Shown: piece by piece, positions 38,716-50,491 of the stretch
Numbering within the stretch: the stretch's first letter is position 1
Layout: each line of letters begins with the position of its first letter
Source of the DNA: Dictyostelium discoideum
Taxonomy: Eukaryota
Length of the DNA stretch: 64,000 bases
Direction: 5' to 3'
Assembly (NCBI GenBank): GCA_000004695.1
Contig: CM000154.2
Location: forward strand, 4,672,001-4,736,000
Position numbers and translations under genes: made by a program
Notes under the pieces: model-generated
Seen by the model: the letters and a program-made list of their open reading frames with translations, nothing else
Database searches by the model: none
Told to the model about the DNA's origin: nothing

Positions 38716-40193
38716 ATGTCAATTGATATAAAATTTACAATTAATGATATTTTATTTAATCAAGAATCATTACAAAAGAAAAATAAATATACATGTCCAA
38801 TTTGTTTTGAATTTATTTATAAAAAACAAATTTATCAATGTAAATCAGGTCATCATGCATGTAAAGAATGTTGGGAGAAATCATTAGAAACAAAAAAAGA
38901 ATGTATGACTTGTAAATCAGTAGTGAATTCATATAATGATTTATCAAGATGTTTGATGGTAGAGCGTGCATTTGATAAAAAAGAATGTTGTTGTATTTAC
39001 TCATTCACCGAACAAATAGTTCAAGGTGGAACAAATTGTTCACCACCAGATGGTGCCTCAGACCAAAATCAAAGAAAATTAATAAAAGATGAAGAAAATG
39101 GTTGTAAAGAAAAAATTGAAGTTGATCAAATTGATTCTCATTTAATCAATTGTCAATATAAATTTGTTACATGTTCATTCAAAGGATGTGAAAAGATTTT
39201 AAGAATGAATTCATTAGAATCTCATCAAAATGAATGTGGTTTCAAATTGGTTATATGTGATTTCTGTAAAAGGGATGATATTAAAAAGAAGGAATTAGAA
39301 ACTCATTATAAGACATGTCCAATGGTTCCAATTGATTGCTCACAAGGTTGTTCAGTGAAAATTGAAAGGAAATCAATTATCGATCATATTGAAAATGATT
39401 GTTGTAATACTCAAATACCATGTAAATATTTTGAACAAGGTTGTAAAGTTGAGATGAAGAGATCAGAATTACAAAATCATTTGGAGAGAGTGAATCATCA
39501 AACTTACATGGGCATTCTAATTGATAAATTAACAAATCAAGTTGGCCACTCAAAGAAAACTCATGATGAACTTTTGAAAAAGATTGAAGATTTGTCATTA
39601 TTAATTATCAAATTCAGTGATGCATGTTTAAAGAAACAAGTTCTTCCAAAGGCTTTGGATATTTGTTCAAATGGGTATAGAAATAAATGGATCATTTCTA
39701 ACTATTCAAGTTTAGCAAAATCAAAATTAAATTGTAAATCATTGTCCTCTCCAATACTGTTAATACTCTCTCACCATTTTCAAGTTTGTGTTTATCCTAA
39801 AGGTGATGAAAATAAAGAATACATTTCATTATATTTAAGAGTTAATAATATTGAAGAACCAAACTCATTAAAAGTAGAATATTCATTTACATTAGTCAAT
39901 GTTTTGGATAAATCAAAATCAATTACAAAAAGAGTAGATAAAATAGGTAATTTATACAAAAATTATTATTATTATTATTATTATTATTATTTTAATTTTT
40001 AATTAATTATTATTATTATTATTATTATTTTTTTATTTTAGTTTTTATAAGTCCAAAAGAATGGGGATGGGGAAAATTCTTATTATCTGATTTAATTAAT
40101 AAAGAGAATGGTTGGTTAAGTAATGATGATAAATTAACAATAGAAATTTATATTAAAATTTTAAATGAAGAATATGAACCATTGGAGTCTTAA
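38716..40193 (+). CDS. TRAF-like protein: RING finger + TRAF-type zinc fingers + C-terminal MATH domain, 2 exons
   Basis: RING '[41 protein letters not shown]'. TRAF zinc fingers (repeated 'C..GC....R..L..H...C'). MATH domain '[36 protein letters not shown]...ISLYLRV', donor GTAATT at 39947, exon 2 40042-40193 '[41 protein letters not shown]'. Confidence 0.8.
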
Positions 40194-46493: not shown

Positions 46494-48165
46494 ATGAAGT
46501 ATAATATAATATTATTATTTATAATATTTTTATTAAGTTTTATGAATTTTGGTGTAAATGCAAATTCATATGATTTTACAGATTTTCCAAATGCATCAAT
46601 TGTTATCACTTGGAATAATTTATTATTAAATGCAATTCATAAAGCAAGTCCACCTCCAACAGTAGTTTCAAGAAGTCTTTCAATGGTTCATACAGCAATA
46701 TATGATTCATGGGCATACTATACAAATTCTAAAGGTGTTTATTTAATTGGTGAATCAAATTGTTCAACAATACCAAAAAATAAAAATGATAATGATATTA
46801 AAAAATCAATTTCATTTGCAGCATATAGAACTTTAGTTGATTTATATCCACTATCAATGTAAATAAATAATATTATTTATTAAAAATAATTATAATAATA
46901 ATAACATATAATAAAAAAAATAGGTATTAATACTATTTATTTTGAAAATAAGTGATAATTATAATGAAAAAATGAAAAATTTAGGATATGATATAAATGA
47001 TATTAATTTAAATTTAGATAATTCAGTTGGTATTGGAAATAAAGCATCAAAATTATTATTAGAGAATAGATGGTTGGATGGATCAAATCAAAAGGCAATT
47101 TATGGTGGTAAAAATTATAGTGATTGGACTAATTATGCACCAAGAAATGATGCTCAACCATCTAAATTAAGAAAACCTGATAATTGGCAACCGTTATCTG
47201 TACCTGTTAAAAACTCAACTTTATTTACAATACAATCATTTTCAACACCACAATGGGGTAGTGTGAAACCATTTTCATTATTATCAGGCTCACAATTGAG
47301 ACCAACAATACCACCACCTTACTATTCATTCAATGATCAAAATAATAATAAAACAATTGAGAAATTAAAGAATTCAGCATGGGAGTTAATTGGATATACT
47401 CAAAATATGACAGATGAAATTAAAGCGATTGCAGAGTATTTTGGTGATGGTCCAAATTCAGTATTGCCACCAGGTCATTGGAATTTATTTGCACAATTTG
47501 TATCAAAACGTGATAATCATTCAATTGAACAAGATGTTAAATTATACTTTATGTTAAATAATGCTCAATTAGATTCAGGAATCGCATGTTGGGATTGTAA
47601 AAGATTCTTTGATAATGCTAGACCTGTTACAATGATTCCAGTTCTATTTAAAGGTGTTAAAATAACTGGTTGGAATGGTATTTGTAAAGAAAATGTTGAA
47701 TTTGATTTATCTAATTGGATACCATATCAAGATCCATATGTTATTACTCCACCATTTTCAGATTAGTAAGTAGTAATAAATTAATTAATTTTAATTTATT
47801 TCATTTAATTTATTTTAATTTATTTTATTAATTTATTTATTTTTAGTACAAGTGGACATAGTACATTTTCATCATCAGCAGCAGAAATTTTAAAAAGGTT
47901 TACCGGTAGTGATAAATTTGGTAATTCGGTTACAATTAAAGCTGGATCATCAATTTTTGAAACCAACTGTTCATTTCCAGTACCAAAAACTGATATTAAC
48001 TTATATTGGGAAACATTTACAGATGCTGCACAACAAGCATGCATTTCAAGACGTTATGGAGGTATACATTATGATTTTTCAGATTATGAAGCAAGAAAAA
48101 TGGGTAGGAAAATTGGTGAAATGGTTTGGGATAAATCTCAATCGTTATTTAATAATATAGATTGA
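46494..48165 (+). CDS. Secreted vanadium-haloperoxidase / PAP2 (acid phosphatase) superfamily protein, 3 exons
   Basis: Signal peptide 'MKYNIILLFIIFLLSFMNFGVNA'. The N-terminal region 'ITWNNLLLNAIHKASPPPTVVSRSLSMVHTAIYDSWAYY' resembles bacterial/fungal vanadium haloperoxidase-like proteins. The three PAP2/haloperoxidase active-site motifs are in order: 'CKRFFDNARP' (K-x6-RP), 'PPFSDYTSGHSTFS' (PSGH), 'ISRRYGGIHYDFSD' (SR-x5-H-x3-D-like). Exons 46494-46858 (donor GTAAAT), 46953-47765 (donor GTAAGT), 47847-48165; phases consistent. Confidence 0.7.

Positions 48166-48397: not shown

Positions 48398-50491
<2,094 letters not shown>

What the first reader, a model, noticed from the sequence alone, without database searches (positions are those of the whole stretch)
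46494..48165. Secreted vanadium-haloperoxidase/PAP2-like enzyme in an amoebozoan genome - possible horizontal acquisition
All three histidine-phosphatase/haloperoxidase motifs are present in order (K-x6-RP, PSGH, SR-x5-H), and the N-terminal region looks like bacterial vanadium-haloperoxidase-like proteins. The gene has a eukaryotic signal peptide and two typical AT-rich dictyostelid introns, so it is native and not contamination. Haloperoxidase-type PAP2 enzymes are mainly bacterial, fungal and algal. A secreted one in a soil amoeba could relate to halometabolite chemistry, since dictyostelids make chlorinated polyketides such as DIF-1, or to antibacterial oxidant production.
Basis: partly seen in the sequence, partly recalled or inferred. 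Interest (0 to 1): 0.6.

Follow-up and report, generated by a model that had tools for sequence, protein, structure and literature searches.

The report
Bacterial-type vanadium haloperoxidase homologue in Dictyostelium
This social-amoeba gene encodes a secreted protein of the vanadium haloperoxidase family whose closest relatives are bacterial; it keeps every cofactor-binding residue and is conserved in every dictyostelid genome that gave a hit, but its activity has never been tested.

Summary
Window 46494-48165 (+) is a three-exon gene with two introns of 6-7% GC. Its 498-aa product is identical to an independently annotated D. discoideum protein.

The protein is not a membrane lipid phosphatase. 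It has the two-bundle architecture of vanadium-dependent haloperoxidases (VHPOs): Pfam DUF6851 + VCPO_2nd, PDB sequence hits to esVHPO, XhnO11, NapH3 and NapH1 (E 1e-47 to 1e-31), and an AlphaFold model (pLDDT 92) that overlays NapH1 at TM 0.77-0.84.

All vanadate/phosphate ligands are present (K338, R345, S395-G396-H397, R461, H467), and they are invariant or nearly invariant in about 270 relatives. It keeps the acid-base His and the Trp three residues before the Lys. It lacks the Lys-Ser dyad of site-selective bacterial VHPOs. If active, it should therefore release free hypohalous acid.

Orthologues occur in every dictyostelid genome that gave a hit and form one clade (100% bootstrap). Their nearest relatives are bacterial, at 41-48% identity. 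This supports an ancient bacterial acquisition.

The activity is untested, and an acid phosphatase using the same site cannot be excluded. DIF-1 chlorination already has its own flavin halogenase.

Verdict: a new member of a known kind, of moderate interest.

The parts
46494..46858 (+). Exon 1 (aa 1-121 plus two bases of codon 122); begins with the ATG
   Evidence: The spliced product is identical to KAM9948383.1. tblastn places aa 1-122 here.
46494..46562 (+). Predicted signal peptide (aa 1-23, MKYNIILLFIIFLLSFMNFGVNA, cleavage after VNA)
   Evidence: This is the only hydrophobic segment of the protein, and small residues sit at -3 and -1. It is inferred; SignalP was not run.
46859..46952 (+). 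Intron 1 (94 nt, GTAAAT...AAG, 7% GC, phase 2)
   Evidence: The position is shared with D. purpureum and T. lacteum (alignment column 356).
46953..47765 (+). Exon 2 (aa 122-392)
46683..47193 (+). DUF6851 domain (PF21167, aa 64-202; the first helical bundle, spanning intron 1)
   Evidence: E=9.9e-25, 88 bits against a cut-off of 27. Helices of this bundle, H55-74 to H146-162, are in the model.
47590..47625 (+). Motif 1: W335-D-C-K338-RFFDNA-R345-P346. It contains the Lys and Arg vanadate/phosphate ligands and the Trp at K-3.
   Evidence: W, K, R and P are invariant in 121/121 close relatives and in 147-148/149 representatives. K-3 is Trp in the chlorinating enzymes CiVCPO and AnVHPO (PMC11871015).
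47766..47846 (+). Intron 2 (81 nt, GTAAGT...TAG, 6% GC, phase 2). It lies two codons before the SGH motif.
   Evidence: The position is shared with D. purpureum.
47847..48165 (+). Exon 3 (aa 393-498 plus the TGA stop)
47851..47859 (+). Motif 2: S395-G396-H397. It forms the helix N-cap that binds vanadate and contains the acid-base His.
   Evidence: G and H are invariant and S is nearly invariant. The site-selective VHPOs carry Ser or Phe at the His position.
48046..48069 (+). Motif 3: S460-R461-RYGGI-H467. H467 is the predicted covalent vanadate ligand, or the phosphohistidine nucleophile.
47542..48129 (+). VCPO second helical-bundle domain (PF22778, aa 319-487, spanning intron 2)
   Evidence: E=6.1e-16, 59 bits against a cut-off of 27.

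Best explanation
SHOWN. The locus is a native, spliced D. discoideum gene. Its product is a soluble protein with an N-terminal signal peptide and the full two-helical-bundle architecture of bacterial vanadium-dependent haloperoxidases (Pfam DUF6851 + VCPO_2nd). Every residue that binds vanadate in solved VHPOs is present: Lys338, Arg345, Ser395-Gly396-His397, Arg461 and His467. These residues are conserved in all 12 dictyostelid-clade sequences examined and in a large bacterial family. The dictyostelid genes form one clade whose nearest relatives are bacterial.

INFERRED (origin). The gene entered the dictyostelid lineage from a bacterium before the sampled dictyostelid genera diverged. It then gained introns, a eukaryotic signal peptide and AT-rich codon usage. 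The Dictyostelium species (discoideum, citrinum, firmibasis, purpureum) lack the GPI-signal-like C-terminal tail seen in four other dictyostelid-clade sequences; that this is a loss is inferred.

INFERRED (mechanism). In the secretory or endolysosomal pathway, or outside the cell, His467 binds orthovanadate. H2O2 forms a peroxovanadate that is polarised by Lys338 and by the acid-base His397. This species oxidises a halide to hypohalous acid. The protein keeps His397 and Trp335 (K-3), as in the chlorinating enzyme CiVCPO. It lacks the Lys-Ser dyad that site-selective bacterial VHPOs use to hold a haloamine. The oxidant is therefore expected to leave the enzyme as free HOX. That suits antibacterial or signal-quenching chemistry, or matrix cross-linking, rather than a dedicated step in natural-product biosynthesis.
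For: Gene model and exact match to an independent annotation.

Family: Pfam DUF6851 1e-24 and VCPO_2nd 6e-16. PDB sequence hits are esVHPO 9PTR 1e-47, XhnO11 9L8X 8e-40, NapH3 5e-32, NapH1 1e-31 and Zobellia VIPO 1e-17.

Structure: AlphaFold2 model with pLDDT 92.3 and pTM 0.91. Foldseek gives TM 0.74-0.84 over about 460 columns to NapH1, XhnO11 and NapH3, and 0.63-0.75 to Zobellia VIPO and CiVCPO. Class A acid phosphatases cover only one bundle (TMq about 0.3).

Ligands: they are invariant or nearly invariant in 121 close and 149 diverse relatives and in all 12 dictyostelid-clade sequences examined.

Non-selective type: His397 sits where esVHPO, NapH1 and XhnO11 have Ser and NapH3 has Phe. G-D-G-P sits where esVHPO has E327-x-K329 (with residue roles from bioRxiv 10.1101/2025.10.24.684477). 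K-3 is Trp as in chlorinating VHPOs (PMC11871015).

Secretion.

Origin: dictyostelid monophyly is 30/30 and 100/100 in NJ bootstraps. With the D. discoideum protein as query, scores fall from 510-1102 bits (dictyostelids) to 434 bits or less. With the dictyostelid profile, they fall from 793-924 to 597 or less. Named relatives are Anabaena, Heteroscytonema, Capilliphycus, Lyngbya, Acidobacteriales, Thermoanaerobaculia, Nitrospira and Chloroflexota. The best non-dictyostelid hit, P0014, sits on a contig that also carries TamB and Omp85.

Biological room for such an enzyme: the known secreted heme peroxidase DdPoxA oxidises iodide and thiocyanate, oxidises bromide only very slowly, and is not reported to oxidise chloride (PMC5787809).
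Against: No activity, metal content, localisation or expression data exist for this protein or for any member of its immediate (SGH-type DUF6851) bacterial subfamily. I found no characterised enzyme closer than esVHPO (166 bits).

The Lys/Arg/Ser-Gly-His/Arg/His set is shared with PAP2 acid phosphatases, so sequence alone cannot separate vanadate from phosphate chemistry.

Bacterial gene neighbourhoods gave no functional hint.

Halide specificity cannot be read from single residues; PMC11871015 says so itself.

The HGT inference rests on NJ trees and score gaps, not on ML phylogeny with full taxon labels.
Confidence: 0.6

Rival explanations
1. The protein is a secreted or lysosomal acid phosphatase (phosphoesterase). 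It would use His467 as the phosphohistidine nucleophile and His397 as the proton donor, with no vanadium chemistry in vivo.
For: The active-site residues are those of the PAP2 phosphatase superfamily. Apo-CiVCPO has been crystallised with a trapped phosphate intermediate while catalysing dephosphorylation (PDB 3BB0 title). Several database sources name relatives 'phosphatase PAP2 family protein' or 'phosphoesterase'. Amoebae secrete many acid hydrolases (general knowledge).
Against: Every full-length match among solved structures is described as a vanadium-dependent haloperoxidase, a halogenase crystallised with vanadate, or a VHPO homologue (NapH3). Class A acid phosphatases match only one bundle, at TMq about 0.3. 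The canonical phosphatase H-x3-D is not present: the sequence is H467-Y-D-F-S-D, with Asp at +2 and +5 (read from the sequence; the phosphatase motif is from PMC11402645). Those database names are automatic annotations, not experiments.
Confidence: 0.25
2. The protein is a VHPO-fold protein with another activity or none. Examples would be an isomerase or other vanadate-independent catalyst like NapH3, or a binding or structural protein of the extracellular matrix.
For: NapH3 shows that the fold can be recruited to non-halogenating chemistry (entry title). No experiment ties this subfamily to halogenation.
Against: NapH3 has lost the acid-base His (P-S-G-F). Here all seven ligands, plus Trp335 and Phe390, are conserved in all 12 dictyostelid-clade sequences examined and in about 270 relatives. 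That level of conservation is what purifying selection on an intact oxyanion site would give.
Confidence: 0.08
3. The gene was inherited vertically from an early eukaryote or amoebozoan, or shares one origin with the second eukaryote-associated clade ('group X'). In that case it was not acquired by the dictyostelid stem directly from a bacterium.
For: Group X includes EukProt transcriptome and genome proteins. It groups with the dictyostelids in 11/30 and 43/100 NJ bootstraps. Both clades have extra residues, often with a Q-P, before the WQPL motif.
Against: Dictyostelids are closer to bacteria (41-48% identity, 405-434 bits) than to the ten group X members listed (35-40%, 235-264 bits). Group X is also closer to bacteria than to dictyostelids. 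No group X protein is among the 120 best hits of the dictyostelid profile. The large group X insertions are not shared. Both clades have long branches, so their attraction in NJ is expected. In either scenario the ultimate source is still the very large bacterial family.
Confidence: 0.15
4. The locus is an ordinary eukaryotic multi-pass lipid phosphate phosphatase, or bacterial contamination of the assembly.
For: None beyond the shared three-motif signature.
Against: There is no PF01569 hit and no TM helix other than the signal peptide, and LPP1 matches at TM about 0.2. Two spliceosomal introns of 6-7% GC and a CDS of 28% GC lie on a 5.3-Mb chromosome record. Typical Dictyostelium genes flank it (TRAF-type zinc-finger-like, poly-Asn, RhoGAP/WD40). 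Orthologues are present in eight other named dictyostelid species' genomes.
Confidence: 0.01

Closest known systems
esVHPO of Enhygromyxa salina (PDB 9PTR/9PTS), with NapH1 (3W35/3W36), XhnO11 (9L8X) and NapH3 (8CXL): site-selective bacterial VHPOs and their homologues
   Same: The same two-bundle architecture along the full length (sequence E 1e-47 to 1e-31; TM 0.74-0.84). The same Lys, Arg, Ser, Arg and His vanadate ligands at the same spacing. The alkyl-quinolone VHPO subfamily to which esVHPO belongs also mostly carries signal peptides and is thought to be secreted (PMC11312541).
   Different: Those enzymes have Ser (Phe in NapH3) at the acid-base His position, and a catalytic Lys (esVHPO K329) that carries the haloamine. 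The Dictyostelium protein and its bacterial subfamily have His397 and G-D-G-P there. Identity is only about 25-30%.
Uncharacterised bacterial DUF6851 + VCPO_2nd proteins (for example Anabaena cylindrica 'PAP2 family/PEP-CTERM anchor' protein, and Nitrospira, Thermoanaerobaculia and Chloroflexota 'vanadium-dependent haloperoxidase')
   Same: These are the true nearest relatives: 41-48% identity over 91% or more of the length, with identical active-site and second-shell residues. At least some are presumably extracellular: one source annotates a PEP-CTERM anchor and several start with hydrophobic N-termini.
   Different: They are prokaryotic, intronless, stand-alone genes. The dictyostelid proteins add a short Cys-containing insert (E-T-N-C-S-F-P-V-P), two extra residues before WQPL, a eukaryotic signal peptide and, in some species, a GPI-like tail. 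No member has been characterised.
Curvularia inaequalis vanadium chloroperoxidase (1VNC and others) and Zobellia galactanivorans iodoperoxidase (4CIT/4USZ): enzymes that the esVHPO preprint groups as non-selective
   Same: The S-G-H motif with the acid-base His. In Zobellia VIPO the local sequence is nearly identical (PPFPEYTSGHS and ISRMYGGIHY). Trp at K-3 as in CiVCPO. Phe five residues before the Ser: seen directly in Zobellia VIPO; for CiVCPO the Trp350/Phe397 numbering is from my own knowledge of the CiVCPO literature. No catalytic tunnel Lys.
   Different: The relationship is much more distant: CiVCPO E=4e-4 over the N-terminus only, TM about 0.65; the Pfam VCPO_N hit at 18.5 bits is below its 29.3 cut-off. 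According to PMC11312541, characterised eukaryotic VHPOs lack signal peptides.
Class A non-specific acid phosphatases (PhoN, PhoC, E. blattae) and membrane PAP2 lipid phosphate phosphatases
   Same: The three signature motifs and the catalytic His, Lys and Arg set of the PAP2 superfamily.
   Different: They have a single bundle of about 220 residues, or a six-TM membrane protein. Only partial fold overlap (TMq 0.2-0.3), no PF01569 hit, and no H-x3-D.
DdPoxA, the secreted heme peroxidase of D. discoideum (functional analogue, not a homologue)
   Same: A secreted, glycosylated, H2O2-dependent halide- and pseudohalide-oxidising enzyme proposed to keep fruiting bodies free of bacteria (PMC5787809).
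   Different: It has a heme cofactor and an unrelated fold. It oxidises iodide and thiocyanate and only barely bromide. A VCPO-type enzyme could in principle also oxidise bromide and chloride.

Membership tests
Vanadium-dependent haloperoxidase structural family (Pfam VCPO_2nd PF22778 with DUF6851 PF21167) | Both domain models matched above their curated cut-offs | tested here: met
   88 bits against 27, and 59.4 bits against 27.
Vanadium-dependent haloperoxidase structural family | Full-length two-helical-bundle fold superimposable on solved VHPOs | tested here: met
   model pLDDT 92; TM 0.74-0.84 to NapH1, XhnO11 and NapH3; 0.63-0.75 to Zobellia VIPO; about 0.65 to CiVCPO.
Vanadium-dependent haloperoxidase structural family | Vanadate ligands at canonical spacing: Lys, Arg (+7), Ser-Gly-(His/Ser), Arg, His (+6) | tested here: met
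   K338/R345, S395-G396-H397 and R461/H467. They are conserved in the family.
Vanadium-dependent haloperoxidase structural family | Binds vanadate and oxidises halide with H2O2 | not testable with these tools
   This needs recombinant protein, an MCD or thymol-blue assay, and ICP-MS.
Site-selective bacterial VHPOs (NapH1 / esVHPO clade) | Ser replaces the acid-base His in the S-G-x motif (esVHPO S429) | tested here: not met
   His397 is present here. esVHPO has P-S-A-S, NapH1 and XhnO11 have P-S-G-S, and NapH3 has P-S-G-F.
Site-selective bacterial VHPOs (NapH1 / esVHPO clade) | Catalytic Lys of the Lys-Ser dyad (esVHPO K329, preceded by gate residue E327) | tested here: not met
   It aligns to G286-D287-G288-P289. 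The segment A/G-D-G-P-x-S-x-x-P-P-G-H-W has no conserved Lys in the family. The alignment is uncertain by one or two positions.
Membrane lipid phosphate phosphatases (PAP2, PF01569) | PF01569 match and a multi-pass membrane topology | tested here: not met
   No PF01569 hit at E<=1. One hydrophobic segment only, the signal peptide. LPP1 matches at TM about 0.2.
Class A bacterial acid phosphatases | Single-bundle protein of about 220-250 aa with S-R-x5-H-x3-D | tested here: not met
   The protein has 498 aa and two bundles. The Asp lies at +2 and +5, not +4. Fold overlap is partial only.
Fungal CiVCPO-type chloroperoxidases | VCPO_N (PF17897) N-terminal domain above its cut-off | tested here: not met
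   18.5 bits against a cut-off of 29.3. The sequence hit to 1VNC covers aa 32-131 only, at E=4e-4.
Bacterium-to-eukaryote horizontally acquired gene | The recipient clade is monophyletic and its nearest relatives are bacterial | tested here: met
   100/100 NJ bootstrap. There are score gaps straight to bacterial proteins, and the closest hit lies on a contig with TamB and Omp85.
Bacterium-to-eukaryote horizontally acquired gene | Absent from sister eukaryotic lineages (other Amoebozoa) | tested here: inconclusive
   No other named eukaryote appears in the top hits. However, most database proteins carry no taxon label. A separate eukaryote-associated clade also exists, and its position is unresolved.
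Bacterium-to-eukaryote horizontally acquired gene | Integrated in the host genome (introns, host composition, host neighbours), so not contamination | tested here: met

The most novel reading that the evidence does not exclude
Dictyostelids carry an active, secreted or GPI-anchored vanadium chloro- or bromoperoxidase captured from bacteria. It would be the first vanadium enzyme described in Amoebozoa. Using H2O2, for example from the Nox enzymes, it would make free HOCl or HOBr outside the cell or in the endolysosomal lumen. That would give a bacterial predator a non-heme counterpart of myeloperoxidase. It would complement DdPoxA, which handles only iodide and thiocyanate efficiently. The oxidant could kill prey, destroy bacterial quorum signals, or cross-link matrix.
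Probability: 0.3. Interest if true: 0.7.

Novelty: new member of a known kind. Interest (0 to 1): 0.45.

Why it matters
VHPOs have been characterised in fungi, in brown and red algae, in cyanobacteria and in some other bacteria. In the searchable literature I found no report of one in Amoebozoa or linked to Dictyostelium.

If the enzyme is active, D. discoideum would be a genetically tractable eukaryote in which to ask what a free-HOX-releasing VHPO is for. It would add a halide-oxidising system to amoebal antibacterial defence, beside the heme peroxidase DdPoxA.

It would also give a first experimental handle on a very large, uncharacterised bacterial subfamily. That subfamily has 701 clusters (at 50% identity) with E<=1e-30 and is common in metagenomes. 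It could bear on natural chlorination of soil organic matter.

If the protein proves to be a phosphatase, it is simply one more horizontally acquired secreted hydrolase.

Tried and rejected
(1) NCBIfam scan: no family matched.

(2) Gene neighbourhoods of four bacterial homologues (Anabaena, two MAG-derived contigs of 0.7 and 1.5 Mb, and the closest hit P0014): stand-alone genes with no Pho regulon, oxidase or biosynthetic-cluster neighbours. This says nothing on phosphatase versus haloperoxidase.

(3) Foldseek against afdb50, intended to obtain taxon-labelled eukaryotic relatives: the library was not available.

(4) Identifying the organisms behind 'group X'. The cluster look-ups give only EukProt transcript names. 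Contigs L009 and L010 are AT-rich, gene-dense and almost free of Pfam hits. The mimivirus early-promoter motif is not enriched. IMG/VR holds no close relative, only five distant family members.

(5) NJ with Kimura or gamma distances and quartet counts cannot decide whether dictyostelids and group X are sisters: 37% and 43% bootstrap. The quartet count is uninformative, because bacterial pairs group trivially.

(6) The DIF-1 link was rejected as unnecessary, because ChlA, a flavin-dependent halogenase, performs that chlorination.

(7) I could not find the dictyBase/AX4 gene identifier or any expression or proteomic record. The 90% identity cluster holds only recent GenBank KAM/KAN entries and no XP_ entry. 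The 2005 genome paper is not in the library.

(8) Active-site geometry and solvent exposure of the model could not be measured, because model coordinates are not exposed to scripts.
Full report
OBSERVATION.

The region 46494-48165 (+) lies in a window of 21% GC. Reading it directly and splicing it gives three exons: 46494-46858, 46953-47765 and 47847-48165. Both introns are GT..AG, 94 and 81 nt long, with 7% and 6% GC; the CDS has 28% GC. The intron 1 acceptor must be the AG at 46951-46952, because the earlier AG at 46922-46923 would put a stop codon in frame.

The resulting 498-aa protein is identical to GenBank KAM9948383.1, a D. discoideum hypothetical protein. That gene occupies exactly 1672 bp on a 5.29-Mb chromosome record.

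The three motifs are present in order: K338-x6-R345-P346, T-S395-G396-H397, and S460-R461-x5-H467.

The only hydrophobic stretch is residues 1-25, with a VNA|N cleavage context. There are eight N-glycosylation sequons and six Cys. This fits a soluble protein that enters the secretory pathway. The signal peptide is inferred, since no SignalP run was possible.

WHAT IT IS.

Pfam finds DUF6851 (aa 64-202, E=1e-24) and the VCPO second helical-bundle domain (aa 319-487, E=6e-16). It finds only a sub-threshold VCPO_N match and no PAP2 PF01569 match. NCBIfam has no model for it.

Against PDB sequences, the hits are all vanadium-dependent haloperoxidases or their homologues:
- esVHPO of Enhygromyxa salina (9PTR), 1e-47
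- XhnO11 (9L8X), 8e-40
- NapH3, 5e-32
- NapH1, 1e-31
- Zobellia iodoperoxidase, 1e-17
- Curvularia chloroperoxidase, weakly and over the N-terminus only

An AlphaFold2 model built on 121 homologues has pLDDT 92.3 and pTM 0.91. It superimposes along its full length on NapH1, XhnO11 and NapH3 (TM 0.74-0.84). It also matches Zobellia VIPO and CiVCPO (TM 0.63-0.75). Class A acid phosphatases cover one bundle only (TMq about 0.3), and human LPP1 is at noise level.

ACTIVE SITE.

In esVHPO, vanadate is bound by H496 and stabilised by K373, R380, R490, S427 and S429 (bioRxiv 10.1101/2025.10.24.684477). The HMMER alignments place K338, R345, S395, H397, R461 and H467 on these positions. In 121 close relatives, W335, K338, R345, P346, G396, H397, R461 and H467 are invariant, and S395 and F390 are present in 120 of 121. 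In 149 representatives of 50% identity clusters, the same residues are kept in 138-148. All 12 dictyostelid-clade sequences examined keep them.

Two features separate this protein from the site-selective bacterial VHPOs, which are its best PDB hits. First, it has His at the acid-base position, where esVHPO, NapH1 and XhnO11 have Ser and NapH3 has Phe. Second, it has G-D-G-P where esVHPO has the gate Glu and the haloamine-forming Lys, E327-x-K329. The same preprint notes that non-selective VHPOs replace that Lys with Pro.

The local sequences around motifs 2 and 3 are almost those of the Zobellia iodoperoxidase (PPFPEYTSGHS and ISRMYGGIHY). The residue three positions before the catalytic Lys is Trp. 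It is also Trp in the chlorinating enzymes of Curvularia and Ascophyllum, but Arg in red-algal and cyanobacterial bromoperoxidases (PMC11871015). That paper cautions that halide specificity is not set by one residue.

My reading is that, if the enzyme is a haloperoxidase, it is of the free-HOX-releasing kind and may reach chloride. This is inference.

ORIGIN.

With the D. discoideum protein as query, dictyostelid orthologues score 510-1102 bits. They come from D. cf. discoideum, D. citrinum, D. firmibasis, D. purpureum, Polysphondylium violaceum, Tieghemostelium lacteum, Cavenderia fasciculata, Acytostelium subglobosum and Synstelium polycarpum. The next proteins score 434 bits or less, at 41-48% identity. 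Where they are named, they come from cyanobacteria, Acidobacteria, Nitrospira, Thermoanaerobaculia and Chloroflexota.

An exhaustive HMMER scan of 1.84 billion cluster representatives shows the same gap, 630 to 408 bits. It also shows a large family: 701 clusters at E<=1e-30 and 3008 at E<=1e-10. A profile of ten dictyostelid sequences again drops from 793-924 to 597 bits or less. The best non-dictyostelid hit lies on a contig that also carries TamB and Omp85 genes.

In NJ trees the dictyostelids are monophyletic in 30/30 and 100/100 bootstraps.

The gene is thoroughly domesticated. Intron 1 sits at the same alignment column in D. discoideum, D. purpureum and T. lacteum. Intron 2 is shared by the two Dictyostelium species. 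C. fasciculata has introns elsewhere. Flanking genes are typical Dictyostelium genes.

I conclude that the gene was acquired from a bacterium before the sampled dictyostelid genera diverged. The donor phylum is not resolved.

A COMPLICATION.

The representative search also revealed a second clade, which I call 'group X'. It contains EukProt transcriptome and genome proteins together with metagenome proteins. It carries a 23-residue insertion and a Cys-containing insertion that both bacteria and dictyostelids lack. It is monophyletic in 100/100 bootstraps.

It joins the dictyostelids in only 43/100, and pairwise scores put each clade nearer to bacteria than to the other. I treat the relationship as unresolved and most likely long-branch attraction. 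A shared eukaryotic history cannot be excluded.

The contigs that carry group X genes are AT-rich, gene-dense and nearly devoid of Pfam hits. I could not tell whether they come from a protist or a giant virus.

FUNCTION.

Shown: the fold, the ligand set, their conservation, and secretory targeting by sequence features.

Inferred: vanadate binding at His467, peroxide activation, halide oxidation, and release of HOX.

The main rival is acid phosphatase activity at the same site. Apo-CiVCPO can itself dephosphorylate (PDB 3BB0), and database names for relatives alternate between 'PAP2 phosphatase' and 'vanadium-dependent haloperoxidase'. Against the rival:
- Every solved protein that matches over the full length is described as a VHPO, a vanadate-complexed halogenase, or a VHPO homologue.
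- The phosphatase H-x3-D is absent.
- Acid phosphatases match one bundle only.

Bacterial gene neighbourhoods were uninformative.

The antibacterial-oxidant idea remains open. The known secreted heme peroxidase DdPoxA oxidises iodide and thiocyanate and barely oxidises bromide. Secreted bacterial VHPOs are known to halogenate foreign quorum signals.

Several other dictyostelid-clade sequences (P. violaceum and a near-identical Logan-assembled protein, T. lacteum, and EukProt protein P0009; C. fasciculata less clearly) end in a hydrophobic, GPI-signal-like tail that the Dictyostelium species lack. This points to a cell-surface or extracellular site of action.

NOVELTY.

Full-text searches found no paper that connects Dictyostelium or amoebae with a vanadium haloperoxidase homologue. 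The protein is annotated only as hypothetical, PAP2/haloperoxidase-domain or phosphoesterase.

It is a new taxonomic occurrence of a known enzyme family, acquired through a known process: HGT into dictyostelids is well documented for other genes. It is a solid, testable lead of moderate interest, not a new kind of system.

Noticed in passing
P0238, P0315, P0317, P0318 (EukProt); P0311 on L009 8727-10436; P0304 on L010 4400-6061: A second, eukaryote-associated clade of the same VHPO-like family ('group X') has a conserved insertion of about 23 aa (EPKIxxGxPGYIxGVTDVPNxGPxTxGY) and a Cys-containing insertion before WQPL. Its host contigs are about 31% GC, gene-dense, apparently intronless and almost free of Pfam hits. 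Whether they come from a protist or a giant virus is unresolved.
   Followed up: partly
L013 8001-8987 (IMGVR_UViG_3300020474_000001, a 207,655-bp contig); also L011, L012, L014, L015: Five IMG/VR viral contigs encode distant members of the family (29-34% identity to group X). One of them is a 207-kb contig.
   Followed up: no
L007 4001-6997 and 7877-10416 (Cavenderia fasciculata GL883029.1): The C. fasciculata orthologue lies about 0.9 kb upstream of two tandem DyP-type peroxidase genes on the same strand. This may be coincidence or a small cluster of peroxide-using enzymes. It is not seen next to the D. discoideum, D. purpureum or T. lacteum genes.
   Followed up: no
C-termini of P0005, P0006, P0007, P0008, P0009 compared with P0121, P0002, P0003, P0004: P. 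violaceum (P0005), a near-identical Logan-assembled protein (P0006), T. lacteum (P0007) and EukProt protein P0009 end in a hydrophobic tail preceded by small residues, which looks like a GPI-anchor signal; C. fasciculata (P0008) has a hydrophobic stretch near, but not at, its C-terminus. The four Dictyostelium species end shortly after the catalytic domain. This suggests a shift from a surface-anchored to a freely secreted protein.
   Followed up: partly
P0002 (D. citrinum), around the SGH motif: The annotated D. citrinum protein lacks 'VITPPFSDY' just before SGH, at exactly the position of intron 2. This is probably a mis-called splice site in that annotation rather than a real deletion.
   Followed up: no
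P0008 (C. fasciculata, 636 aa), N-terminal residues of about 1-80: The C. fasciculata model carries an extra N-terminal exon of about 80 aa ahead of the hydrophobic signal-like segment (residues 82-107). This is likely an over-extended gene model.
   Followed up: no
window 38716-40002 (+) and 48398-50491 (+): The neighbours are typical Dictyostelium genes. One is a Cys/His-rich ORF that looks like a TRAF-type zinc-finger protein (by eye, not scanned). The other is a downstream gene with two Asn runs of roughly 35-40 residues each, annotated as a 627-aa product in the matching NCBI record. Neither looks bacterial.
   Followed up: no
cluster of P0121: The 90% identity cluster for this protein contains only recent GenBank KAM/KAN entries from new Dictyostelium assemblies, plus two Logan ORF fragments. 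No XP_ entry from the AX4 reference appears. The AX4 gene model may differ or may be missing from the collection.
   Followed up: no
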